Below, piece after piece: positions 8,632-19,768 of a DNA stretch of 32,747 nt. Position 1 is the first letter of the stretch; every line of letters starts with the position of its first letter. Position numbers and translations under genes: made by a program. Under the pieces are notes generated by a model. That model was not told the DNA's origin. It did not search any database and saw nothing but the letters and a program-made list of their open reading frames with translations. The stretch comes from an uncultured Oscillospiraceae bacterium (GTDB lineage: Bacteria; Bacillota; Clostridia; Christensenellales; CAG-314), in the NCBI GenBank assembly GCA_964474475.1, contig CAYYTD010000002.1:1-32747 (forward strand). Reading direction: 5' to 3'.

Positions 8632-10323
8632 ATGAATTTGAATTACGAATTATTGTTGTTTTTCGTTTATAGAAAAATAATTAAACGTAAAGACGTAGAG
8701 CCTATTATGGCGGCATGCAAAAAGCTTCAATTACCCGTTGAAACTTACCTGATTGCCAAAGAGTATTGTACCGAAGTTACCGCGCTCGAGGCAATGGCGG
8801 ATTTCTACTGCATGCCCTGTTGCGAATTGGACATGCTCGACATCGACGAGGATTTGTTTGCGCAGTTCGGCTACGATTTCATGAAAAAGCACAAGGTCAT
8901 TCCCGTTTGTCGCAACAAGAAGGGAGTGTTGTTGCTTGCCGTGGCACGTCCGCTCGATTGCAACGCCGTGTCGGCAATCAATTCCCGCTTTACTTGCCCG
9001 TTGGATTTCGTCCTTGTGCCGGCAGTTCAAATAGACAGGCACATCGACTCCATCGTTGCGGTAATTTCCACCTCAACCGCTCTTGACGACCTCAATGCTG
9101 AAAAGGACAAGGAACTGGCAAAGGCAAACAACGCTGGCGACTTTAACGGCGTTGGCAAGGAAGACGACGTAATTAACACTTCCGCAGTGCGCTTGGTCGA
9201 TTCTATCATTCGTGAGGCAATTCCCTACCGCGCAAGCGACATTCACATTGAGCCCTTCGAAAAGGTAGTTAAAGTGCGTTACCGCATCGACGGCGATTTG
9301 CAACCGCGTGCGGAGTTCCCCATCGAAAGTTACGCTGCAATTTGCGCGCGTATTAAAATAATTTCCGGCATCAACATTGCTGAACGCCGCGTTCCGCAAG
9401 ACGGCCGTATCAACATGATCATCGGCGACAAGGAATACGACTTCCGCGTGTCGTCGTTGCCCACCGTTTACGGCGAAAAGTTCGTTATTCGTATTTTGGA
9501 CAAAACTTCCTTCAACTTTACTCGTGCCGACCTTGGCTTTACCGACAGGGAAAACGCCATTGTCGATAAGATTTTGGAGCGTCCTCACGGCATAGTGCTG
9601 CTTACCGGCCCCACCGGTTGCGGAAAGAGCACTACGTTGTACTCCTTCTTGAAGGAAATCAACAAGCCCAACGTAAATATAGTTACGGTTGAAGATCCCG
9701 TGGAATACACCCTGTTTGGAGTAAACCAAACTCAGGTTAACACCAAGGCAAATATGACCTTTGCTTCCGCCCTTCGCTCCATTTTGCGTCAAGACCCTGA
9801 TATTATCATGATAGGCGAAATTCGTGACGAAGAAACGGCGCAAATAGCCATTAGAGCGGCAATTACCGGGCACTTGGTATTTTCTACGTTGCACACCAAC
9901 GACGCTCCCGGCGCAATAGTGCGTTTGGAAGACATGGGCGTAGAAGATTACCTCGTATCCGATGCGTTGGTTGGCGTTATTGCCCAACGTTTGGTCAAGC
10001 GTTTGTGCCCTGCATGCAAAAAGAAGGGCAAAACCACCGCCAAGGAAATGGAATTGCTCGGCATAAAAGAGCCTGTGACGATTTATCGTCCGCAAGGCTG
10101 TCAGTTCTGCAACGAAACGGGCTACAAAGGCCGTATTGCCGTTCACGAAATAATGCATCTCAACGACGAGATGAGACAAGTAATATCCAAAGAAAAGACT
10201 ATTGAAGGATTGAGAAACATCGCTTTACAAAACGGCATGCACACCCTGTGGGATTCCTGCAAGGAGTACGTGTTGGCAGGGGTAACCAGCCTGCAAGAAT
10301 TGGTCTCCCTTTCCGTCGAGTAA
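8632..10323 (+). CDS. pilB: Type IV pilus assembly ATPase (GspE/PilB family)
   Basis: Walker A GPTGCGKST, Asp/His boxes, and tetracysteine CPACKK...CQFCNETGYKGR. N-terminal T2SSE_N-like region. The start could instead be Met26 (8707). Confidence 0.93.
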   Translation: MNLNYELLLFFVYRKIIKRKDVEPIMAACKKLQLPVETYLIAKEYCTEVTALEAMADFYCMPCCELDMLDIDEDLFAQFGYDFMKKHKVIPVCRNKKGVLLLAVARPLDCNAVSAINSRFTCPLDFVLVPAVQIDRHIDSIVAVISTSTALDDLNAEKDKELAKANNAGDFNGVGKEDDVINTSAVRLVDSIIREAIPYRASDIHIEPFEKVVKVRYRIDGDLQPRAEFPIESYAAICARIKIISGINIAERRVPQDGRINMIIGDKEYDFRVSSLPTVYGEKFVIRILDKTSFNFTRADLGFTDRENAIVDKILERPHGIVLLTGPTGCGKSTTLYSFLKEINKPNVNIVTVEDPVEYTLFGVNQTQVNTKANMTFASALRSILRQDPDIIMIGEIRDEETAQIAIRAAITGHLVFSTLHTNDAPGAIVRLEDMGVEDYLVSDALVGVIAQRLVKRLCPACKKKGKTTAKEMELLGIKEPVTIYRPQGCQFCNETGYKGRIAVHEIMHLNDEMRQVISKEKTIEGLRNIALQNGMHTLWDSCKEYVLAGVTSLQELVSLSVE

Positions 10324-10397
10324 CGGAAAAATTTTGGCGGCATTTGCCGCAACCCCCTTTTGGTTGTTAGTTTTCAAGCGAGTACGGAGAAAAATCA

Positions 10398-13148
10398 ATG
10401 GCGTATCAACATTTTTATTCAAGAGTGCCTTCCAAAGTAAGCATGTTCAACAAAGCCGACGGGTTTGATACCTTTGCTTCGTCGTCAATTTTTTCGCGCA
10501 GTTACGTCGACGACGAGCTTGTCCCCGTGCTTAACTATGCCCCCGGCAAGTACGAGGCGTCTTACATTCGCACGGGCAGTTTGCCTCCCGTTTACTGGCG
10601 TTACGTGGGCAGTCAAAGGCAGGTTGTCGTTAGTTGTGTCAGCTTTATGCCTCGTGATTACACCGGTGAGCGTAGCAGCTGGCTAATTCACACCCTCGTG
10701 CCCAACGACGACGAACGCGCCTCAATCAGCCGCGCAACGGACAGGCAAATTATCAATCCCGAATGTTTTACTACGGACATTTCCGGCTTCAAAATCACTT
10801 ACGCCAACGCGTCCCCGATAAAGGATTACCCCGAATTGGCTTATTCGCCTTTGCGCGTTACGGACGTAGAGCAGTTAACTACTCAGTATTCCTCCTCGCA
10901 ATTAAAAAAGTTAATTTACGCTTTGCTTGCCGTTGCTTGTGGCAAGTGCAAGGCGGTTTACATAGGCGCCGGCAAAGATATGCAAACCATTTCGCAAGAG
11001 GCGCTTGCGTTGATGAACAGGCTTTTGCAGGTATTTCCGCACAACGTGCGGGACAGAATACCCTTCATCACTTACACGACGGAGTACAACAAGCTAAATA
11101 CTTTTGCCGTCAAGTTTTTGCCTTCCGATTGCATGACCATGCCGCCAAGCAAAGGCATTCGTTTCGATTTGCCGTCGAAGGAATCGGACGGCATCAAAGA
11201 GGCGGATTTTGCCTCTGCGCAAATGCTTGTAGAGTTCTTTTACAGTTTGCTTGCGGACAAGCCTTTGCGCCTGCGTTTCGTCAAGTACGCTTTGAGAGCG
11301 GCCGAAACGGACAAAACGCTGCAGGAACCCAACTTTAAAAATCTCAACGCCATCGTTACACTTTTCAAGCAGGTATCCAAGGCGTATACCGAAAAGCAAG
11401 TTTTGCCCGACGATGCACGCGTGTTGGAAATGTTTTCCATTTACGAAAAGTATCGCAACATACTTTCGCCAAAGGAAAGATGCACCGTGTACGGAAGTTT
11501 GGAAAGGTACATTAGGTTGCACCAAGCCATTCCGTCGGCAGTCTTCACCAAGGTGAGCAAGCTGTACCCCAAGGAAACGCCTCACGTCAAGTCGTGTGTT
11601 ATGCGCATAATGCTAGAGATGATTCACACAGACATAATGCGCGACAAGCTTTTTGCATTCATCAAGAACAATTTCGATGCCGAAAACGCCCGCGGCAAAT
11701 CCATTATTTGTCGCCACCTCATTAGGGTTTATTACGGCGGATTTTTGCAACATCAAATTCTTTCTTTGCTGGATGGCTGCTTTGCCGAACAGTCGGAGGG
11801 AACGCAGGATTTCGTTTTGGAAAAACTGTTGTTGTCCATTCGCACGCAGGACGTTCGTTTACAGCTATTTGAATTTTTTGAAAATCAATACGGTGTATTT
11901 ACCGAAGAACAAAAGAAAACACTGTACAAAACGTTGCTGTCGTCGTTAGACGAAGCGGACGAATTGAGCGTTGCCGTGGTGCAATTTGTCGACAAGCACG
12001 TTGGCAAAGAGCCCAAGGAAGTATCGCAGTTGGTCGCCGACCAAATAGTGAGTATTTTGGATGCCGAGTGCCGCCGCGAAAACGAATTGATCAAAGTGCT
12101 GTCGGCAAGCAATGGTTTTTGTCTAAACGCCGTCTTGCCTTCTGTCCTTTCGTGGACTTCTCGCAAGGTTTTTGCCAAGTACGTCGACATAGTGTCTTCC
12201 GCCAACGTTGCAAAGGCAACGGAAATGCTGTGCAACTGTTTCGTTGCTGTGCCTTCTCCGTCGGCAGAGGCAGTTAGTGGTTTGAACAGGGCGGTTGATG
12301 CTCTTGCTGGCAAGCAACCTACAGTGGACTTTTTCCGCCTTGCCGATGCCTACTCCAAGGTGAAAAGGTTTGTTTCGGCAAAATCTAACAGCGTGTGGAA
12401 CAAGCTTGCCGATAGGCTTGCCACCGACGTGTTGCAAGTTGCGCTTTGCTCTCGCGTGCTGGATTGTTTTTGCATCAAACCGCAAGTTGGTTACGTAGAA
12501 AAAGCCAGCAAATTTATTGCCGCTAACGAATTTTTACAAAGTGAACCTCTTTCGCAAGCCGTTTGCGCGGCCAAATGTGTTTTGGACGGCGAATTGCCCT
12601 CCGCCAACATGAAAGGTCTGTGCAAGTTGCTCGGCTACAAGCGTGAGCGCGAAAGCTTCGTGCAGTGTCTCGAAGAGATTCTTGCCGATAGCAAAAACAA
12701 AATTTCGGCAGATAAGGACGTGGAGTATCTCGTTGACGTTTGTGCGCTGGTTTCTTTGCTTGGCAAGGGAAGTTTCAACTGGGAGGACGTTTATCGCCTT
12801 TGCTTTGCCGGAACGCAACGCAAATACGAAATTGCCTTCAAAGAGGATGCCAAAAAGCTTGCAAATGCGGCAAAGTATGCTTCGGTAGATGCGCTTGTTC
12901 AAGTGCTTCGCTGCTGTGCGCGTATGCGTGCATCCGATGCTCCGCAGCAGGTTCGCAACGTGGTTATCGGCAACGACAATAATTCGCTGTCCACGCTCGT
13001 CGCAAAATACACTTCTTCCTACGGCAAAGGCATTCTCAAAGAGGTTGCCGATATTTGCGTGGACGTTGCCGACGACGAAGTTATGGCAATCGTCAAGCCT
13101 GCCAAAACGGGAATTTCGGCCTTCTTTGAAAAGCTGTTTAAAAAGTAA
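10398..13148 (+). CDS. Large cytoplasmic protein of unknown function (916 aa): ~250-aa alpha/beta N-domain plus ~650-aa helical region
   Basis: GGAGA RBS at 10386-10390 and ATG at 10398, 75 nt after pilB on the same strand. No TM segment, no P-loop, and no family motif I can name. Confidence 0.75.
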   Translation: MAYQHFYSRVPSKVSMFNKADGFDTFASSSIFSRSYVDDELVPVLNYAPGKYEASYIRTGSLPPVYWRYVGSQRQVVVSCVSFMPRDYTGERSSWLIHTLVPNDDERASISRATDRQIINPECFTTDISGFKITYANASPIKDYPELAYSPLRVTDVEQLTTQYSSSQLKKLIYALLAVACGKCKAVYIGAGKDMQTISQEALALMNRLLQVFPHNVRDRIPFITYTTEYNKLNTFAVKFLPSDCMTMPPSKGIRFDLPSKESDGIKEADFASAQMLVEFFYSLLADKPLRLRFVKYALRAAETDKTLQEPNFKNLNAIVTLFKQVSKAYTEKQVLPDDARVLEMFSIYEKYRNILSPKERCTVYGSLERYIRLHQAIPSAVFTKVSKLYPKETPHVKSCVMRIMLEMIHTDIMRDKLFAFIKNNFDAENARGKSIICRHLIRVYYGGFLQHQILSLLDGCFAEQSEGTQDFVLEKLLLSIRTQDVRLQLFEFFENQYGVFTEEQKKTLYKTLLSSLDEADELSVAVVQFVDKHVGKEPKEVSQLVADQIVSILDAECRRENELIKVLSASNGFCLNAVLPSVLSWTSRKVFAKYVDIVSSANVAKATEMLCNCFVAVPSPSAEAVSGLNRAVDALAGKQPTVDFFRLADAYSKVKRFVSAKSNSVWNKLADRLATDVLQVALCSRVLDCFCIKPQVGYVEKASKFIAANEFLQSEPLSQAVCAAKCVLDGELPSANMKGLCKLLGYKRERESFVQCLEEILADSKNKISADKDVEYLVDVCALVSLLGKGSFNWEDVYRLCFAGTQRKYEIAFKEDAKKLANAAKYASVDALVQVLRCCARMRASDAPQQVRNVVIGNDNNSLSTLVAKYTSSYGKGILKEVADICVDVADDEVMAIVKPAKTGISAFFEKLFKK

Positions 13149-13429: not shown

Positions 13430-14338
13430 TTAGGCCTTGTCAAAGCGCTTGTCCTTGCCGTTAAGCTTGGCAACGAAGGTTTGCTTTTGGTCAATCAGCC
13501 TCGAGAATACTCGTTCGTCGTATTTTTCTCGTAATTGCGCAAGGCTCAGGTTGGTAGAAATAAACGTTTGCTTGCCTGCCGTCATACGCTCGTTGAGCAA
13601 AATAAAGGTGTATTCGGCAGTTACGTTTTTGTAGGTTTTTTCGGTGCCGAGGTCGTCTATTACAAGCACATCAACGTCCGTCAGGTTGTCTAACACGAGT
13701 TTTTTAGTTTGCAAATCGCCAAGATAGCATTCCAAAAACAAGTTGTTAAGTTTGTAAGCGGTAACGAACAATACGCTTTGGTTTTGCTTTGCGCATCTGT
13801 TTGCGCAGGAACACAGCAAGTAGGTTTTGCCCGTGCCGGTGGGGCCAAGCAACAAAAAGTTTTTCAAATGCTTTTCGTCGCACAGGCGCTTTGCCATTTT
13901 GTAAATTTTCACGTTTTCCGGTTGGTTTTCCGTCGATGCTTCAAAGGAACAGTTTTCAAGCGGAATGTTGCTTTGCGACAGAATTATGCTCCGCATTTCT
14001 TCAAGCAAACAGCTGCACGCCTTGCCGTCAACGTAGCCCGTGTCGTTGCATTTTGCGCAGGAATAGTGCGGCTCAAGGTCGCCTGCCGAAACGTGGTACT
14101 TTGCAAGTAACTCGTTGTATTTTGTCGTGGCTTGTTCAAGCTCGGCTTTAGCTTGTTGCATTTGTTCGTCTGTGCCAAGGGCAAGTTTCACCATGGCTTG
14201 TCGCCTAACCTTTTCGCATTCGGCAAAGTCGGCGTGGGAACGTAACGCTTCAAGCGTTTTTTCGCACTTTTCTTCGGCAAGATAGCGGCGACAGTCAATT
14301 TCTCTTTTAGATAGCTCTATCAGTTGAGATTTGTTCAT
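13430..14338 (-). CDS. dnaI: DnaI/DnaC-type helicase loader ATPase
   Basis: Walker A GPTGTGKT, Walker B VLVIDDLG, N-terminal Zn motif CAKCNDTGY...CSC. TAATG overlap with the upstream gene. Confidence 0.85.
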   Translation of the reverse strand: MNKSQLIELSKREIDCRRYLAEEKCEKTLEALRSHADFAECEKVRRQAMVKLALGTDEQMQQAKAELEQATTKYNELLAKYHVSAGDLEPHYSCAKCNDTGYVDGKACSCLLEEMRSIILSQSNIPLENCSFEASTENQPENVKIYKMAKRLCDEKHLKNFLLLGPTGTGKTYLLCSCANRCAKQNQSVLFVTAYKLNNLFLECYLGDLQTKKLVLDNLTDVDVLVIDDLGTEKTYKNVTAEYTFILLNERMTAGKQTFISTNLSLAQLREKYDERVFSRLIDQKQTFVAKLNGKDKRFDKA

Positions 14339-15792
14339 TATTCCTCCGCATCGTCTAACGACGTAAACAGCGCATTAAGCTGATCTTCGGTGTATTCTCT
14401 TCGTTCAATGTCCATTCCGCCAACGTATGCGGTTGTTGCCGCTGCCTGCTTGGCTGCACTTTCGTGCGGGGTGTTCTTGGCTTGTTCTACGGAGCAAATT
14501 CCCTTTTGCTTGTAGTCGGACAAAACCCTGTTCACGTACGCCATGGGCGATGTGGTTCCCGATGCTTTTTGAGATGCAAAATATATCAGTTCTTCGGGCA
14601 TTTGCCAATTTTGAGTCCAGGTTTTGTACAGGTTTCTGTCCGAAGGCGTAACCTTTCTTTCCAAACCGCAACAGTTAAGCACTTTCAGTATTTTTTCGTC
14701 CGTTCGCGTAACGGTTTGCAAGTATTCGTCCAAGGCGGCAAGCGTGGTTACGCCGTTTTTGTATAGTTTACTTATCACCGACGACATGCCTGCAAGCGTG
14801 CGAATGCCGCTGCGGAAGCAATATTTGGCTATGGCAAGGATGGTTTCGTCATCAAATCCCTTGCGAAGCCAATCGGTAAGATATTCGTCCACTACGGCGT
14901 CAAGGCTTTGGTAGTACACGCCGATGGCTTTGTTTACGCTGCGTGCCAATTCGTACAAACGGTTTTTTTCGTTTTCGTAAAAGTCAATTTCTTTTACGGA
15001 CAACGCACCCTTTTTGTAGTATTCGCACAGGCGCGAATCCAGCTTGTTCATTCCGCCCGACTTGGTCTTTTTGGCTACGGCGGTTATTACGTCTTGGGTA
15101 AAGCCAAAGTCTTTGGTCCATTTTTCGTAACGTTCGCGGTCTTCGTATTCAAATTTTCTGTTTAACGCCAGCGCCTTGAAGAGAATTTTAAGGTCGTCGT
15201 CGTATTTTTGTTGGCTGTTCAGGTTGTCTTGAACGGTTGCCAGAGTGGTGGCGCCTTTCGTTAGTTGATTTCTTGCAACGGTTAGTATGTACCTGTAGTT
15301 AATGGACGTCCCTTTCAGTTCGGCACAGTACTTTGCCACGGCAACTAACGCATCCGGTTCAAATGTGGTATTTTCCAAAAAGGTGTAATACTCGTTGTAT
15401 TCGTTGGGGGTAATCATTCTTCCCTCCAACACCTGTTGAATGTCTTTGCTGAATTTTGCGTACTTGGAGGGTTTGATTTTTTTTAATGCCGATGCGGAGT
15501 TTCTCATGGCAAGGTACACCACACAAGGGGGATTGTCCCCGGTGAGATGCACGAGGCCAAGTTCTTCCCAATATAAAAAGGCGTCCAGCACGTCTTGTTC
15601 GCTTATGCCCAACTTGTTTGCGATGGTGGCGCAGCCGTTGTCGGCACCGTTGCTGTCGCAAAGTACAAGCCCAAGCAAATAAACCGCACTGCGCACGTCG
15701 GGCGCATCGGGCAGATAGTTGATTATAAATTTGTTTTCAACGCTTGTAACGCCGTTTTCAACAAGTTGTTTTTCTTTGTCGCAAAATTTCAT
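14338..15792 (-). CDS. DnaD-domain replication initiation/helicase-loading protein (Bacillus DnaB-like, not the helicase)
   Basis: 484 aa with repeated DnaB_2/DnaD-like segments (LGISEQDVLDAFLYWEELGLVHL; later helix-rich repeats). GAGGG RBS. Coupled to dnaI. Confidence 0.75.
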   Translation of the reverse strand: MKFCDKEKQLVENGVTSVENKFIINYLPDAPDVRSAVYLLGLVLCDSNGADNGCATIANKLGISEQDVLDAFLYWEELGLVHLTGDNPPCVVYLAMRNSASALKKIKPSKYAKFSKDIQQVLEGRMITPNEYNEYYTFLENTTFEPDALVAVAKYCAELKGTSINYRYILTVARNQLTKGATTLATVQDNLNSQQKYDDDLKILFKALALNRKFEYEDRERYEKWTKDFGFTQDVITAVAKKTKSGGMNKLDSRLCEYYKKGALSVKEIDFYENEKNRLYELARSVNKAIGVYYQSLDAVVDEYLTDWLRKGFDDETILAIAKYCFRSGIRTLAGMSSVISKLYKNGVTTLAALDEYLQTVTRTDEKILKVLNCCGLERKVTPSDRNLYKTWTQNWQMPEELIYFASQKASGTTSPMAYVNRVLSDYKQKGICSVEQAKNTPHESAAKQAAATTAYVGGMDIERREYTEDQLNALFTSLDDAEE

Positions 15793-15819
15793 TATTTCCC
15801 TCGTTTTTTGCGGAAAGTC

Positions 15820-15848
15820 TTGCTAATTTTGAACCCATAGTTTATAAT
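15820..15848 (+). promoter_or_regulatory. Candidate promoter for the coiled-coil gene
   Basis: TTGCTA at 15820-15825, 17-nt spacer, TATAAT at 15843-15848. This implies a ~170-nt leader. Confidence 0.35.
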
Positions 15849-16025
15849 ATAAGTTAATATAAGCGGTTGCTTTGCCGTCGTGTTAAACGATATTCGTTGC
15901 GGTTGTCAACCTTCGTAGGCGCAAGTCGATTTTTCGTTAATATCGTCTGCGATAAATTTTAACACAAAAACACGACCTTTTCAACAGATTTATTAGAACT
16001 TGGTAAAATATTCAATGAGGAAACT

Positions 16026-19000
16026 ATGCGTATTGTCAAATTAGTTGCGGTAGACGCGCAAACGGACGAAAAACAAACCTTCACTTTCGGCACGTCGAGT
16101 AGCGGGAAACCGTTGGTTGCCGCCAAGGGCGGAAGGCTCAATTCCTATTTGGAGTTTTGCTTTACCGACGAGGCGGAAAGCGTAAAAGACGTTGAAGTGG
16201 AGTTTTCCGTAGAGGGGCAACTTTACAGTTTGTCTAAAACTCATACGCAAGAGGGCGTCAAAACTTTGCTCAAAGCCTTGCAGGATGGCAAGTGGAACGT
16301 GGTTGCGCGCGCCAACGCCACCGAATACGTCGAACGGCTCATTGGCGAAAGCGTTGGCGACATGCTCAAACAAGACTTTGTCAACAACGCCGCAGTGGAA
16401 GGTTTTGACGGCAATTTGCTTGCTTTTGAAAAGATAAGGTTGCTTGCCGAAGTGGAACAAACCATTTCGCAATCTTCGCAAGAAGCTCAACGCATGTGGG
16501 ACAGTGCACGCAGCAAGGTTAAGCAGTACGCATCGTCGCAAAACGACGAACCCGTCGTCACGCCGGAGCAAATAGAAGAAATAGAGGTGGAGTTGGAAGA
16601 AATTTCTTCCAAACTTGCAAACGCCACTGCGGAGCTGGCGGACTTAAAGGAACAGTACGCCGCAAGCAGTTTCGTCCAAGACGTTCAGCGTGAGCTTCAA
16701 TCGGCGCAGGAAAAGTATAATTTGCTTATAGGCAAGCAAAACGAAATAGACAAGTTGCGTTCCGCCTTGCGCTTGCGTGAGGATGTCGACGCTTTACTTC
16801 CCAAGGTAAATACTCTCAAAGAGATAATCCGCCAAAAGGACGAATACGAAAAGAAACGTTACGCAGTCACGTCGGAAATAGAGTGGCAGCAAAACGAGTT
16901 GGACGGCATAGAAAAATCGCTTGAAGAAAAGAACAAGCTGTTCGTTGCCACGCAAGACAAGCGCTCGCGCATCGAGGGCATCAACGCCGAACTGACGACC
17001 ATTGCCTCGCTGTACGAAAAGAATCGCAACCTCAACCAACGGTTGACCGACCTGACGGAAAAGGAACAACGTCTTGCGGCGGAAAAGGTAATGTACGCCA
17101 ATAAGCTGGATGCAATCGAAAAATCCCTTGCCGAACTGAATCAAAGCCTTTCGGAATTCAGCATTCCGTCAAAATCGGTGGGAGAGCTGCTCGAGGCGGT
17201 TAGGGTTGACGTAAAAATTGACGAGGTTACGTCGCAGATAGACAAGCTGAACGGCGAAATAGCGGTAAAGGAAAGTCGCATTGCCGAAAAGGAAAGCAAC
17301 CTCGTCGTTCAAGTAAAAAGATTCCGCTCCGTTGCGGAGTTGGACGTGGCAGTAACGCCCATCAAGGCAAAGGATACCATTTTGCAAGTGCTTGACTCCA
17401 AGTACGCCAAGTTGGAAACGGTCAACGCATCGTTGGAAGAAAAACTCATCAACCTTAGGCGCGCGGCGGAAGAGTACAAGTACAAAATTTTGCAAGTAGA
17501 GCAATCGCGTGCGGTTCTGGAGGGGCGCCGCGACAAAGCGCTTTTGGTCAAGCAAGAGGAATTCAAGCGTGAAGTGTTCTTGAATAGCCAAAAGACCTAT
17601 TCCGACGATGCTTCGGGGGTTTTTGCCGTAACGGTAAACTTTAACGATAGCGAAATAGATTCGTTGAATCGTCAAATTGCCGATCGTGTTGCCAAAAAGG
17701 AAGATTATTTGCGCCGTGCAAGCGCGTTAGAAGGTTCCATAAAGGAAATTGCCCGCCACATAGACGTCAACTCTGCCGACATGGCAACGTTGAACAAAGA
17801 AAAGGCCAATATTGTCAACAGGTACAACGAGATTATTTCTCAAAATACCGGTGAAGCGGCGTTTAACTACGTAAAGGCGTTGAGCAGCAACAACGGCACG
17901 CAATACCTGTTGGACGTGCAACAAGAGGCGGTTCGTTCCGAGGCGGAATTGACGGAGGAAAAACGCACTCTCGAAACGCTCAAGAACAAACTATCCTCTC
18001 TCAAATCGCGGTTGAAGTACCTCACCGATACGCAAATGCAATTAGATTCGCCCCAGGCATCCATCGATGCACTCGTTTCTTCAAACGACAAACTGCGCGA
18101 CGAACTTGCAAGCGTGGGCGAAGGGCTTGCATCCGGCTACGAACAGTACAAAGCGGTAGCACGCCAAATGGAAGGCGTCGACTCCAAGTTGGAAGACGTT
18201 CGTAGTGCAATTATTGAAATAACCAAAACGGTAGGCGTAAACGAAGACCTTGTTGAACAGTGCAACAAGCGCGCAAGAGAGCTCGCCGGTTGTGACGACG
18301 TCGAGCAAGCCGTAGCTAACTTCAAGTACGAACTGGGCGACGTAGAAAGCGAACGGCAAATGCTTGTCGAATCCAAACAAAACGTCGAAAAGGAACTGTT
18401 CAAGAAGCGTCTTGAACTGGAAAAAACGCAGTGGCTGTACGACTCGAAGTGTAACGAGTATTCCGACGTTTACGGCGAATTGAAAATGGAATTCGGCTTG
18501 CGCGGACTTGACGTGGAACAAGCCACGGCAATGAACTTTGACGAATCGGTAGACGAAGGCAAAAAAGTCGTTGCCGATTACGACGCAGCCAAAAAGAGTT
18601 TGGCGGAAAAAATCGACAACCTGTATTCCGTCATCAAGAACAAGTCCGTTTCGCCCATCGCATCGGAGCAGCTTTCTGCCAAACAACGAGAAGTCGATTT
18701 TCTTGTAGAAAGGCAAAAGAGGCTGGAAGAGCAACGGCGCAACTATATGCAAAACTACGTCGTTGCAAGTGCTGCCCGCATGAAGGTTACCGTTGCGGCG
18801 GCAGAGGCAAAAACGTTGGAAAGCCTGCGCACAACCATTGGGCACAACCAAGTAATGGGCTTGCTCATTCGCGACAAAGTTAATTCCGTCGTCACTCTTG
18901 CTTCACAGTACTTCAAGACGTTTGCAGGCAAAAACGCAAGTTTCGTGCTGGATGGTTACACCGTTGCGGTAGAGGCGGATGGCGTTAAAACTGCCTACGT

Positions 19001-19187
19001 TGATTTGCCTTTCGACGTCAAAACCGCCGCATACGTCAGCTTGCTGTTGGCTTGCCCGTCTACGGATACCACCGATGGCAGATGGCTCGTTTTCGAAGAA
19101 CGCATCGCAATGGACACTCAAGCATTGGCACAAATGTTGCTTAACATCAGCGATGTTAGCTACGTGGTGGATTACAGCCGCGAATAG
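16026..19187 (+). CDS. Rad50/SbcC/SMC-like long coiled-coil protein with degenerate ATPase motifs (1053 aa)
   Basis: The N-terminus MRIVKL...FGTSSSGKPLV has the SbcC-like head layout, but Walker A ends GKP. About 850 aa of heptad-rich Glu/Lys/Leu/Gln sequence follows. In the C-terminal head, LPFDV replaces LSGGE and LVFEE replaces hhhhDE. Confidence 0.7.
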   Translation: MRIVKLVAVDAQTDEKQTFTFGTSSSGKPLVAAKGGRLNSYLEFCFTDEAESVKDVEVEFSVEGQLYSLSKTHTQEGVKTLLKALQDGKWNVVARANATEYVERLIGESVGDMLKQDFVNNAAVEGFDGNLLAFEKIRLLAEVEQTISQSSQEAQRMWDSARSKVKQYASSQNDEPVVTPEQIEEIEVELEEISSKLANATAELADLKEQYAASSFVQDVQRELQSAQEKYNLLIGKQNEIDKLRSALRLREDVDALLPKVNTLKEIIRQKDEYEKKRYAVTSEIEWQQNELDGIEKSLEEKNKLFVATQDKRSRIEGINAELTTIASLYEKNRNLNQRLTDLTEKEQRLAAEKVMYANKLDAIEKSLAELNQSLSEFSIPSKSVGELLEAVRVDVKIDEVTSQIDKLNGEIAVKESRIAEKESNLVVQVKRFRSVAELDVAVTPIKAKDTILQVLDSKYAKLETVNASLEEKLINLRRAAEEYKYKILQVEQSRAVLEGRRDKALLVKQEEFKREVFLNSQKTYSDDASGVFAVTVNFNDSEIDSLNRQIADRVAKKEDYLRRASALEGSIKEIARHIDVNSADMATLNKEKANIVNRYNEIISQNTGEAAFNYVKALSSNNGTQYLLDVQQEAVRSEAELTEEKRTLETLKNKLSSLKSRLKYLTDTQMQLDSPQASIDALVSSNDKLRDELASVGEGLASGYEQYKAVARQMEGVDSKLEDVRSAIIEITKTVGVNEDLVEQCNKRARELAGCDDVEQAVANFKYELGDVESERQMLVESKQNVEKELFKKRLELEKTQWLYDSKCNEYSDVYGELKMEFGLRGLDVEQATAMNFDESVDEGKKVVADYDAAKKSLAEKIDNLYSVIKNKSVSPIASEQLSAKQREVDFLVERQKRLEEQRRNYMQNYVVASAARMKVTVAAAEAKTLESLRTTIGHNQVMGLLIRDKVNSVVTLASQYFKTFAGKNASFVLDGYTVAVEADGVKTAYVDLPFDVKTAAYVSLLLACPSTDTTDGRWLVFEERIAMDTQALAQMLLNISDVSYVVDYSRE

Positions 19188-19345: not shown

Positions 19346-19768
19346 ATGTTGTATCAACAGCTCAAAGACGCCAACGTACAGGCGCTTAAAAATCACGATA
19401 TTGTCAAGAGGTCGGTTTTGTCGGTACTTCTCAACAAAATTAAGCTTGTCGAAATAGACAAGCGCACGCAAAACGCCGAGTTGACGGATGCCGACGTGGT
19501 TGCAGTTTTGCAAAAAACCGTCAAAGAGCTTGCCGAAGAAAAGGAAGCGTTTCACAAGGCAGGCAGGGAAGAAAACGTGCAAACGCTTGCCGCTCAAATG
19601 GAGTTTTTGTCCTCTTTCTTGCCCAAAATGATGTCGGCAGAAGAAATCAAGCAGGTAATTTTGTCGTTGGAAGACAAATCCATCTCCAACGTAATGAAGC
19701 ATTTCAAGGCAAACTATGCCGGCAAGTGCGACATGAGAGAAGTGCAAGCAGTGCTTAAAACCTTGTAA
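19346..19768 (+). CDS. yqeY: GatB/YqeY-domain protein
   Basis: AGGAGG RBS. The ~140-aa length and the N-terminus MLYQQLKDANVQALKNHD..RSVLSVLL..IK are typical of the YqeY family. Confidence 0.75.
   Translation: MLYQQLKDANVQALKNHDIVKRSVLSVLLNKIKLVEIDKRTQNAELTDADVVAVLQKTVKELAEEKEAFHKAGREENVQTLAAQMEFLSSFLPKMMSAEEIKQVILSLEDKSISNVMKHFKANYAGKCDMREVQAVLKTL

What the first reader, a model, noticed from the sequence alone, without database searches (positions are those of the whole stretch)
16026..19187. Rad50/SbcC/SMC-like coiled-coil protein with every ATPase motif degenerate and no partner nuclease or kleisin
The head layout is preserved: MRIVKL..., a beta-strand pair VEVEFSVEGQLYSLSK, and a C-terminal lobe. 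The catalytic motifs are not.
- Walker A reads G-TSSS-GKP (16089-16112), with Pro replacing the Mg-binding Ser/Thr.
- The signature LSGGE is replaced by LPFDV (~19004-19018).
- Walker B hhhhDE is replaced by LVFEE (~19086-19100).
- No zinc hook CxxC sits in the ~850-aa coiled coil.
- No sbcD/mre11, scpA/B, or Lamassu- or Wadjet-type partner genes flank it.
It is transcribed divergently from dnaB/dnaI. A catalytically dead SMC-like protein would be a structural or scaffolding derivative, possibly chromosome- or division-associated.
Basis: partly seen in the sequence, partly recalled or inferred. Interest (0 to 1): 0.65.

Follow-up and report, generated by a model that had tools for sequence, protein, structure and literature searches.

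The report
ATPase-dead Rad50/SbcC relative beside dnaB-dnaI
An uncultured gut Clostridia lineage keeps, under strong selection and always next to its replication helicase-loader genes, a 1053-residue relative of the DNA-repair protein Rad50/SbcC that has lost its ATP-burning motifs, so it probably acts as a passive long tether rather than a motor.

Summary
ORF 16026-19187 encodes a 1053-aa protein with a two-lobed head and about 830 residues of helix.

- **Homology:** A profile search of PDB sequences hits only Rad50 heads (E 2e-9). Profile-profile alignment to SbcC gives 94-96% probability. Foldseek returns SMC, MukB and Rad50.
- **Dead motifs:** The alignments place GTSSSGKP on Walker A, N121 on the Q-loop Gln, LPFDV on LSGGE, LVFEE on Walker B and Y1046 on the H-loop His. 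None of 29 full-length family representatives has GxxxxGK[ST].
- **Not decay:** pN/pS is 0.05 between strains. The gene is intact in 23 of 24 congeneric genomes.
- **New here, hook:** Two distant members carry a SbcC-type CPIC zinc hook at the apex. In this clade a near-invariant 33-residue apex replaces it.
- **New here, conservation:** It peaks in the distal coiled coil, not the heads.
- **New here, linkage:** Every member examined (48 close loci, six distant lineages at 16-25% identity) lies divergent from dnaB(DnaB_2)-dnaI, while the other flanks vary.
- **Genome context:** A normal SMC, RecN and a short SbcD-like gene lie elsewhere.

Best reading: an ATP-independent SbcC/Rad50-derived tether or scaffold, possibly working with the helicase loader. 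That role is inferred, not shown.

The parts
16026..19187 (+). Whole gene: 1053-aa ATPase-dead Rad50/SbcC-like coiled-coil protein (P0001)
   Evidence: ORF and translation. About 177 full-length homologues. pN/pS 0.05.
16026..16427 (+). Head N-lobe, residues 1-134 (beta-beta, P-loop remnant, helix, four strands, Q-loop region)
   Evidence: AF2 secondary structure at pLDDT about 80-89. hhalign to the SbcC N-lobe, probability 94%. Rad50 N-lobe match in PDB. Foldseek 1us8_A TMt 0.69.
16089..16112 (+). Walker A remnant G22-TSSS-G27-K28-P29
   Evidence: Aligned to SbcC GPTGSGKS. In 120 homologues position 29 is Ser 6 times and Thr never; K28 is kept in 103 of 120.
16386..16388 (+). N121, at the position of the Q-loop glutamine
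   Evidence: hhalign column. Asn in 119 of 120 homologues.
16428..17597 (+). Ascending coiled-coil arm, residues 135-524, with breaks near 236 and 377-387 and a kink at invariant P445
   Evidence: AF2 helices 135-174, 180-235, 238-376 and 388-524. P445 is invariant across the wide family.
17550..17660 (+). Apex, residues 509-545: KQEEFKREVFLNSQK.YSDDASGVFAVT.NF.D, near-invariant; takes the place of the zinc hook
   Evidence: AF2 loop 525-541. Near-invariant in 120 homologues. Distant members P0144 and P0145 have GDxCPIC inserted here.
17649..18926 (+). Descending coiled-coil arm, residues 542-967, with breaks at 607-623, 673-680 and 826-842 that mirror those of the ascending arm
   Evidence: AF2 helices. 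Break positions are symmetric about residue ~532 (my arithmetic). Y615 and A618 are conserved family-wide.
18927..19184 (+). Head C-lobe, residues 968-1053
   Evidence: AF2 strands and helices. hhalign to the SbcC C-lobe, probability 95.8%. Rad50 C-lobe match, overall E 2.4e-9.
19005..19019 (+). Signature-motif remnant L994-P-F-D-V (canonical LSGGE)
   Evidence: hhalign column. No SGG in any of 120 homologues.
19083..19103 (+). Walker-B-like strand W1020-L-V-F-E1024-E1025-R1026
   Evidence: Aligned to SbcC FFFLDEG. E1024 is E 105 / D 15 and E1025 is kept in 118 of 120 in the clade. Not conserved in the wider family.
19158..19163 (+). S1045-Y1046 at the position I assign to the H-loop Ser-His
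   Evidence: Tyr in 115 of 120. My own placement by topology: it is the last strand of the AF2 model, matched by eye to SbcC ISHV. The hhalign alignment stops short of it.
15793..16025 (.). 233-bp divergent intergenic region shared with dnaB; promoter-like sites on both strands
   Evidence: Length is 116-268 bp in relatives. No DnaA box.
14338..15792 (-). dnaB-type gene (484 aa, 3-4 DnaB_2 repeats), invariant divergent neighbour
   Evidence: Pfam DnaB_2, 6.9e-35. Neighbour in all 48 close loci and in six distant lineages.
13430..14338 (-). dnaI (helicase loader, IstB/DnaA-type AAA+), downstream of dnaB
   Evidence: Pfam IstB_IS21 and Bac_DnaA. Conserved with dnaB.
19346..19768 (+). yqeY, frequent but not invariant downstream neighbour
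   Evidence: Pfam YqeY. Present downstream in about a third of close loci and in several distant ones.

Best explanation
The gene encodes a derivative of the SbcC/Rad50 branch of SMC-like ABC ATPases that no longer works as an ATPase.

Shown here:
- Its N- and C-terminal lobes are homologous to the two halves of a Rad50/SbcC head.
- They are predicted to be joined by a ~390-residue-per-arm folded-back coiled coil with paired discontinuities.
- Walker A Ser/Thr, Q-loop Gln, the signature motif and H-loop His are replaced family-wide.
- The gene is under strong purifying selection.
- Constraint is greatest in the distal coiled coil and apex, not in the heads.
- Two distant members keep a SbcC-type CPxC hook exactly at the apex.
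- The gene is always divergently paired with dnaB(DnaB_2)-dnaI.

Inferred:
- The protein is an ATP-independent, roughly 55-nm rod.
- It dimerises through its invariant apex. This is the protein-protein successor of the zinc hook.
- It works as a passive tether or scaffold whose heads are adaptor domains rather than engines.
- Its cellular job is tied to the DnaB-DnaI helicase-loading machinery, for example holding or organising origins, or bridging broken or stalled forks for restart.
For: - Homology: an hmmsearch of the family profile against PDB sequences gives only Rad50 heads as significant hits. The best is 3qf7_A at 2.4e-9, with N- and C-lobe both matched in order.
- hhalign to SbcC lobes gives probability 94% and 95.8%. 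Cross controls are below 1%. SMC and RecN are not detected.
- AF2 has mean pLDDT 76.7 with ABC-head topology and long helices.
- Foldseek's top hits are Smc2/4, MukB, JetC, Smc5/6 and Rad50, and nearly all the head-sized hits are Rad50.
- Motif loss: column counts in 120 homologues. None of 29 full-length representatives has GxxxxGK[ST].
- Function retained: pN/pS is 0.05, from 61 synonymous and 10 non-synonymous differences. The ORF is intact in 23 of 24 congeneric genomes.
- Constraint is in the middle of the protein. P445, R577 and Y615 are invariant across 16-25%-identity relatives.
- Hook: CPIC sits in the apex loop of P0144 and P0145.
- Linkage: divergent dnaB-dnaI in 48 of 48 close loci and in all six distant lineages examined, while the other flanks differ.
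- The protein is an addition, not a replacement: SMC, RecN and an SbcD-like gene lie elsewhere in the genome, and congeners pair that SbcD-like gene with a short AAA_23 partner.
Against: - No direct evidence of dimerisation, of any binding partner or of localisation.
- Structures are monomer predictions, and I could not inspect the coordinates.
- The heads are acidic (net -6 and -7; whole protein -36), which argues against Rad50-like DNA binding by the heads.
- In this clade G22, G27, K28 (86%), E1024 and E1025 are still conserved, so some nucleotide or ligand binding cannot be excluded.
- Conserved divergent pairing may reflect only a shared control region.
- DnaB_2 proteins of lineages without this gene have the same N-terminal motif, so there is no co-evolution signal.
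- No DnaA boxes lie in the intergenic region.
Confidence: 0.5

Rival explanations
1. It is a non-hydrolysing nucleotide-binding switch. As in the degenerate sites of some ABC proteins, the head of the Fimimonas-clade protein still binds ATP or another ligand without turnover, and this controls head association or partner binding.
For: Within 120 close homologues G22 (117), G27 (116), K28 (103), E1024 (E/D in all 120), E1025 (118), W1020 (119), R1026 (115), N121 (119) and Y1046 (115) are conserved. The pocket is therefore under selection in this clade.
Against: - The Mg-coordinating Ser/Thr is absent (Ser 6 of 120, Thr 0).
- The signature motif needed for ATP-sandwiched head dimerisation is gone.
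- In the wider family none of these positions is conserved, although the proteins keep their length, coil and gene context.
- Heads are the least conserved part.
Confidence: 0.2
2. It is a generic cytoskeletal or division-associated coiled-coil protein that merely descends from SbcC. The pairing with dnaB-dnaI is historical or regulatory and has nothing to do with replication.
For: The protein is acidic with no obvious DNA-binding surface. There is no co-evolution signal in DnaB_2. Long coiled-coil proteins often act as cytoskeletal scaffolds (general knowledge).
Against: The dnaB-dnaI pairing survives divergence down to 16-25% identity and complete turnover of all other neighbours. Such persistence is unusual for unrelated genes.
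Confidence: 0.2
3. It still works with a nuclease in trans. It would be an inactive subunit or regulator that pairs with the SbcD-like phosphoesterase (own genome C84) and its short AAA_23 partner, forming a heteromeric SbcCD-like complex.
For: The genus encodes an SbcD-like gene plus a 620-640-aa AAA_23 gene elsewhere. In one distant lineage (L103) such a pair lies just beyond dnaI. In genome G031 a true sbcDC pair is divergent from the DnaB_2 gene.
Against: No nuclease gene is adjacent in any of 48 close loci. The proximity occurs in 1 of 6 distant lineages and 1 of 14 other families. The SbcD-like gene already has its own ATPase partner.
Confidence: 0.07
4. It is a decaying relic, an assembly artefact or a mobile defence gene (Lamassu LmuB or Wadjet JetC type).
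For: ATPase motifs are degenerate. There are weak PADLOC hits to LmuB and JetC.
Against: - pN/pS is 0.05.
- The ORF is full-length in about 177 homologues.
- It has a fixed core-genome position.
- PADLOC and NCBIfam hits lie only in the coiled coil and far below cut-offs.
- No LmuA or JetABD-type partners are present.
Confidence: 0.02

Closest known systems
SbcC / Rad50 (ABC-type SMC-like ATPase of the SbcCD / Mre11-Rad50 nuclease)
   Same: - Bipartite head homologous in both lobes.
- Long folded-back coiled coil of similar length.
- A SbcC-type G-x-x-CPxC hook at the apex in two distant family members.
- N-terminal MKI.K..., Y.L.R strand pair and F..F after the Q-loop.
   Different: - No Walker A Ser/Thr, Q-loop Gln, signature motif or H-loop His.
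- No hook cysteines in this clade.
- No adjacent SbcD/Mre11 gene.
- Highest conservation is in the distal coil instead of the heads.
- Invariant pairing with dnaB-dnaI.
SMC (condensin-type) with ScpA/ScpB
   Same: Overall head, coiled coil and apex architecture. The best global Foldseek hits are Smc2/4, MukB and Smc5/6.
   Different: - No hinge domain and no kleisin neighbours.
- No detectable profile similarity to SMC heads.
- The genome has its own intact SMC (828 bits to TIGR02168; GPNGCGKS, LSGGE and VLDE present).
YhaN/SbcE-type short SbcC-like ATPase paired with a YhaO/SbcD-like phosphoesterase (Firmicutes)
   Same: Weak C-lobe profile similarity (probability 86%). Present in the same genus.
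   Different: - That protein keeps Walker A (NVNGFGKTT) and Walker B (IIDDAF).
- It is about 620 aa long.
- It sits next to its nuclease.
Degenerate (non-catalytic) nucleotide-binding sites of ABC proteins
   Same: ABC fold retained while catalytic residues are substituted; this is a comparison by analogy (my own knowledge).
   Different: Those sites usually keep Walker A Ser/Thr and bind ATP tightly next to a second, active site. Here the only site is degenerate and the signature motif is absent.

Membership tests
Rad50/SbcC family | Bipartite ABC-type head (N-lobe plus C-lobe) homologous to Rad50/SbcC | tested here: met
   PDB profile search hits Rad50 heads at 2.4e-9. hhalign gives 94% and 95.8%. 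AF2 and Foldseek agree.
Rad50/SbcC family | Long intramolecular antiparallel coiled coil between the lobes | tested here: met
   AF2 helices 135-967 with a loop at 525-541 and symmetric breaks. Full-length Foldseek alignments to SMC, MukB and Rad50 chains. This is a prediction only.
Rad50/SbcC family | Walker A GxxGxGK[ST] | tested here: not met
   The sequence is GTSSSGKP. Position 29 is Ser in 6 of 120 and Thr in none. None of 29 family representatives has the motif.
Rad50/SbcC family | Q-loop glutamine | tested here: not met
   Asn121 in 119 of 120.
Rad50/SbcC family | Signature motif LSGG(E/Q) | tested here: not met
   LPFDV aligns to LSGGE. No SGG in any homologue.
Rad50/SbcC family | Walker B hhhhDE | tested here: inconclusive
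   LVFEE. An acidic pair (E/D-E) is kept in the close clade but lost in the wider family.
Rad50/SbcC family | H-loop histidine | tested here: not met
   Tyr1046 in 115 of 120. The correspondence to the H-loop is my own placement by topology; the alignment stops short of it.
Rad50/SbcC family | Zinc hook CxxC at the coiled-coil apex | tested here: not met
   No CxxC in P0001. It is present (CPIC) at the apex of distant members P0144 and P0145.
Rad50/SbcC family | Adjacent SbcD/Mre11 nuclease gene | tested here: not met
   Flanks are DnaB_2, DnaI, YqeY, YcxB and LigT. No SbcD next to it in 48 loci. An SbcD-like gene lies on another contig.
SMC (condensin-type) | Hinge domain, kleisin/KITE partners, intact ATPase | tested here: not met
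   No Pfam hinge or SMC_N hit. TIGR02168 scores 34 bits against a cut-off of 567, in the coil only. The real SMC is on contig C29.
Lamassu LmuB / Wadjet JetC defence ATPases | Model match over the heads plus LmuA or JetABD partner genes | tested here: not met
   PADLOC hits of 28 bits or less, all inside the coiled coil. No partner genes. Fixed core-genome position.

The most novel reading that the evidence does not exclude
This is a Rad50/SbcC-derived pseudo-ATPase that has become a dedicated, ATP-independent architectural partner of the Firmicute DnaB(DnaD-like)-DnaI helicase-loading system. It would tether origins, sister replisomes or broken forks through an apex-mediated dimer. I know of no other SMC-like protein, active or dead, assigned to replication initiation or restart, and the paper searches here found none.
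Probability: 0.3. Interest if true: 0.8.

Novelty: new variant of a known kind. Interest (0 to 1): 0.6.

Why it matters
SMC-like proteins are generally understood as ATP-driven machines. This family has discarded the engine but kept the head fold and the rod, is strongly conserved, and has replaced the zinc hook with a new invariant apex. That gives a natural experiment on what the Rad50 architecture can do without ATP.

Its strict pairing with dnaB-dnaI offers a testable lead to an unknown accessory factor of helicase loading or origin organisation in Firmicutes.

The family has no Pfam or NCBIfam model. Three full-text searches of the paper library found no description of it.

Tried and rejected
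- Pfam gave no domain. NCBIfam and PADLOC gave only sub-threshold coiled-coil matches. Single-sequence phmmer against PDB gave nothing; only the family profile worked.
- Replacement of SMC or SbcC: rejected. The genome has SMC, RecN, RecF and an SbcD-like gene.
- Positional descent from an sbcDC operon divergent from dnaB: seen only in G031, and not in 13 other families of the order whose dnaB-upstream regions I read.
- Co-evolution with DnaB_2: the N-terminal M.FC...T.V.N.F motif is order-wide, so there is no signal.
- DnaA boxes in the shared intergenic region: none. A conserved TTGATTATTTT lies about 26 nt upstream of dnaB in 40 of 53 loci but is absent from this window.
- A class-wide genome sample (399 genomes) found no further members.
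- Three literature searches found no description of such a family.
Full report
**The gene and its surroundings.** ORF 16026-19187 (+) encodes 1053 residues. It starts at an ATG seven bases after GAGGA. Upstream and divergent lie a 484-aa DnaB_2 protein (the Bacillus-type dnaB, not the replicative helicase) and dnaI. Downstream lie yqeY, a YcxB-like gene and a LigT-like phosphoesterase. No nuclease, kleisin or defence partner is adjacent. The five cysteines form no CxxC.

**Homology to Rad50/SbcC.** Simple searches fail:
- Pfam finds nothing.
- NCBIfam gives only 17-38-bit matches inside the coiled coil, against cut-offs of 300-1000.
- phmmer against PDB finds nothing.

Family-level evidence is clear:
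- A profile of 16 diverse members searched against all PDB sequences gives three matches below E 1e-6, and all three are Rad50 head constructs; every other match has E 5e-4 or worse. These are 3qf7_A at 2.4e-9, 3tho_A at 2.9e-9 and 3aux_A at 1.8e-7. Both the N-lobe (59-170) and the C-lobe (924-1046) match, in the right order.
- I built profiles of the family's N- and C-lobes and compared them with seven SbcC proteins taken from related genomes. They give 94.0% (P 1.4e-7) and 95.8% (P 6.8e-9). N-versus-C cross controls give under 1%.
- The same query profiles do not detect SMC or RecN lobes. They detect a short YhaN-like ATPase only weakly.
- AlphaFold2 with an 18-sequence alignment gives mean pLDDT 76.7. 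The model has an ABC-head beta/alpha topology at both termini and helices from 135 to 967.
- Foldseek against PDB ranks Smc2/4, MukB, JetC, Smc5/6 and Rad50 first (E 1e-18 to 1e-11). Every head-sized hit is Rad50, for example 1us8_A with TMt 0.69 and rmsd 3.7.

**State of the ATPase motifs.** The alignments place the remnants as follows:

| Residues here | Canonical SbcC motif |
|---|---|
| G22-TSSS-G27-K28-P29 | GPTGSGKS (Walker A) |
| N121 | Q-loop Gln |
| L994-PFDV | LSGGE (signature) |
| W1020-LVFEE-R | FFFLDEG (Walker B) |
| S1045-Y1046 | Ser-His of the H-loop (my own placement by topology; the alignment stops before this strand) |

In 120 homologues of 43-100% identity, position 29 is Ser six times and Thr never. 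N121 is present in 119, Y1046 in 115, and no sequence has SGG. The acidic pair is kept (E1024 is E 105 / D 15; E1025 is kept in 118), as are G22, G27 and mostly K28 (103).

In the wider family (16-35% identity) none of these head positions is conserved. None of 29 full-length cluster representatives has GxxxxGK[ST]. The loss is therefore ancient and universal, not a strain defect.

**The gene is functional.**
- Against two conspecific strains there are 61 synonymous and 10-11 non-synonymous differences, giving pN/pS of 0.05.
- The gene is intact in 23 of 24 genomes of the genus.
- It evolves about as fast as the adjacent dnaB and dnaI.

**Where the constraint lies.** Conservation is the reverse of that expected in a canonical SMC or Rad50. 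It is lowest in the heads and head-proximal coil (0.50-0.76) and highest at residues 276-800 (0.75-0.90). Across the whole family the invariant residues are P445, R577, I596, Y615, L666 and L701.

AF2 breaks the helices at 377-387, 525-541, 607-623, 673-680 and 826-842. These positions are symmetric about residue ~532, as expected for a folded-back arm with paired joints (the symmetry is my arithmetic).

The apex segment 509-541 (KQEEFKREVFLNSQKVYSDDASGVFAVTANFHD) is almost invariant in 120 sequences.

**A vestigial zinc hook.** Two distant members (P0144 and P0145, 23-25% identity) carry VGD(T/Y)CPIC at exactly this point. This closely resembles a true SbcC hook (GEPCPVCGS in P0184). An AF2 model of P0144 puts CPIC (524-527) in the loop 517-542 between helices 442-516 and 543-611. 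Together with the head homology, this points to SbcC/Rad50 ancestry. It also suggests that the invariant apex of the present clade took over the hook's role, presumably dimerisation.

**Distribution.** An exhaustive HMM search of 1.84 billion representative proteins finds only 64 matches, about 30 of them full-length clusters.
- Among species genomes, members occur in one GTDB family of the order (six genera). These are Candidatus Fimimonas-like gut Clostridia from human, mouse, rabbit, chicken and ruminant samples.
- No member appears in a 399-genome sample of the class, apart from the window's own genome.

**Gene context.**
- In all 48 close loci the gene is divergent from dnaB-dnaI, while the downstream side is reshuffled.
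- The same divergent pairing holds for all six distant lineages I could look up (P0144, P0145, P0146, P0148, P0176 and P0179, at 16-25% identity). Their other neighbours are unrelated: NPCBM, rubredoxin/flavodoxin, Coat_F, LplA, M50 peptidase.
- A very divergent orthologue in genome G312 also has a DnaD/DnaB-like ORF on its divergent side, judged by eye only; no domain search was run on it.
- This is the only conserved block, which makes a functional or regulatory tie to the helicase loader likely but not proven.
- The DnaB_2 gene is the only one in the genome and carries 3-4 DnaB_2 repeats.
- Relatives that lack the coiled-coil gene have the same kind of DnaB_2 protein with the same N-terminal motif.

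**Not a replacement for another SMC-like protein.** The genome has a normal SMC with intact motifs, plus RecN, RecF and an SbcD-like gene. In congeners the SbcD-like gene is followed by a 620-640-aa AAA_23 ATPase.

**Mechanism.** The following are shown: an SbcC/Rad50-type head fold without catalytic residues; predicted long helices with paired breaks; an apex under extreme constraint that replaces a hook; purifying selection; and invariant dnaB-dnaI linkage.

The following are inferred:
- An ATP-independent rod of roughly 55 nm (390 residues per arm at about 0.15 nm per residue).
- Dimerisation through the apex.
- Use of the heads as adaptor modules.
- A tether or scaffold role connected with DnaB-DnaI, meaning origin organisation or attachment, or bridging for restart.

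Some observations cut against a Rad50-like mode of DNA binding. The heads are acidic (net -6 and -7) and the whole protein has a net charge of -36, with no membrane segment. A residual ligand-binding role for the pocket in this clade cannot be excluded.

**Novelty.** No Pfam or NCBIfam model covers the family. Sources call its members hypothetical proteins. Three full-text searches found no description of an ATPase-dead bacterial Rad50/SbcC family or of such a gene next to dnaB-dnaI. First-stage readers of this scan flagged four orthologues in other genomes with the same reading. Those are unchecked notes, not independent evidence.

I class this as a new variant of a known kind.

**Limits.**
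- Structures are monomer predictions whose coordinates I could not inspect.
- No multimer prediction was available.

Noticed in passing
window 14338-15792 (-): The dnaB-type gene carries 3-4 tandem DnaB_2 repeats and is the only DnaB_2-containing gene found in the genome. No separate DnaD was detected. The same ~480-520-aa multi-repeat form occurs throughout the order.
   Followed up: partly
L105 (G031:C1:186500-192600) and L090: In one genome of another family of the same order, a true sbcD-sbcC operon with intact motifs lies divergent, 75 bp away, from the only DnaB_2 gene. This was not seen in 13 other families.
   Followed up: yes
L103 1-2910 and L104: In the lineage of the most distant family member (P0179), a Metallophos gene plus a 683-aa AAA_23 gene lie immediately beyond dnaI. 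The dead and a live SbcC-like protein therefore flank the helicase-loader genes.
   Followed up: no
own genome C84:4764-5042; L091, L092: The genus has a short SbcD-like phosphoesterase (~345 aa). In congeners it is followed by a 620-640-aa ATPase with an intact Walker A (NGFGKTT) and IIDDAF, but an atypical signature region (FSRGVRE). This is a YhaO/YhaN-like pair.
   Followed up: partly
L015-L062, about 26 nt upstream of the dnaB start codon: The 11-mer TTGATTATTTT (AAAATAATCAA on the dnaB strand) is present in 40 of 53 intergenic regions at a fixed distance from the dnaB ATG. It is probably the dnaB -10 or leader. It is absent from this window.
   Followed up: partly
record titles of L015, L022, L048; NCBI taxid 2840648: NCBI taxonomy files Candidatus Fimimonas under Myxococcaceae. 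This would explain why several of these Clostridia MAGs are labelled 'Corallococcus sp.'.
   Followed up: no
window 8632-13148 (+): A PilB-type ATPase is followed by a 916-aa GAP1-N2/GAP1-M protein just beyond dnaI. Earlier reports of this scan already treat it.
   Followed up: no
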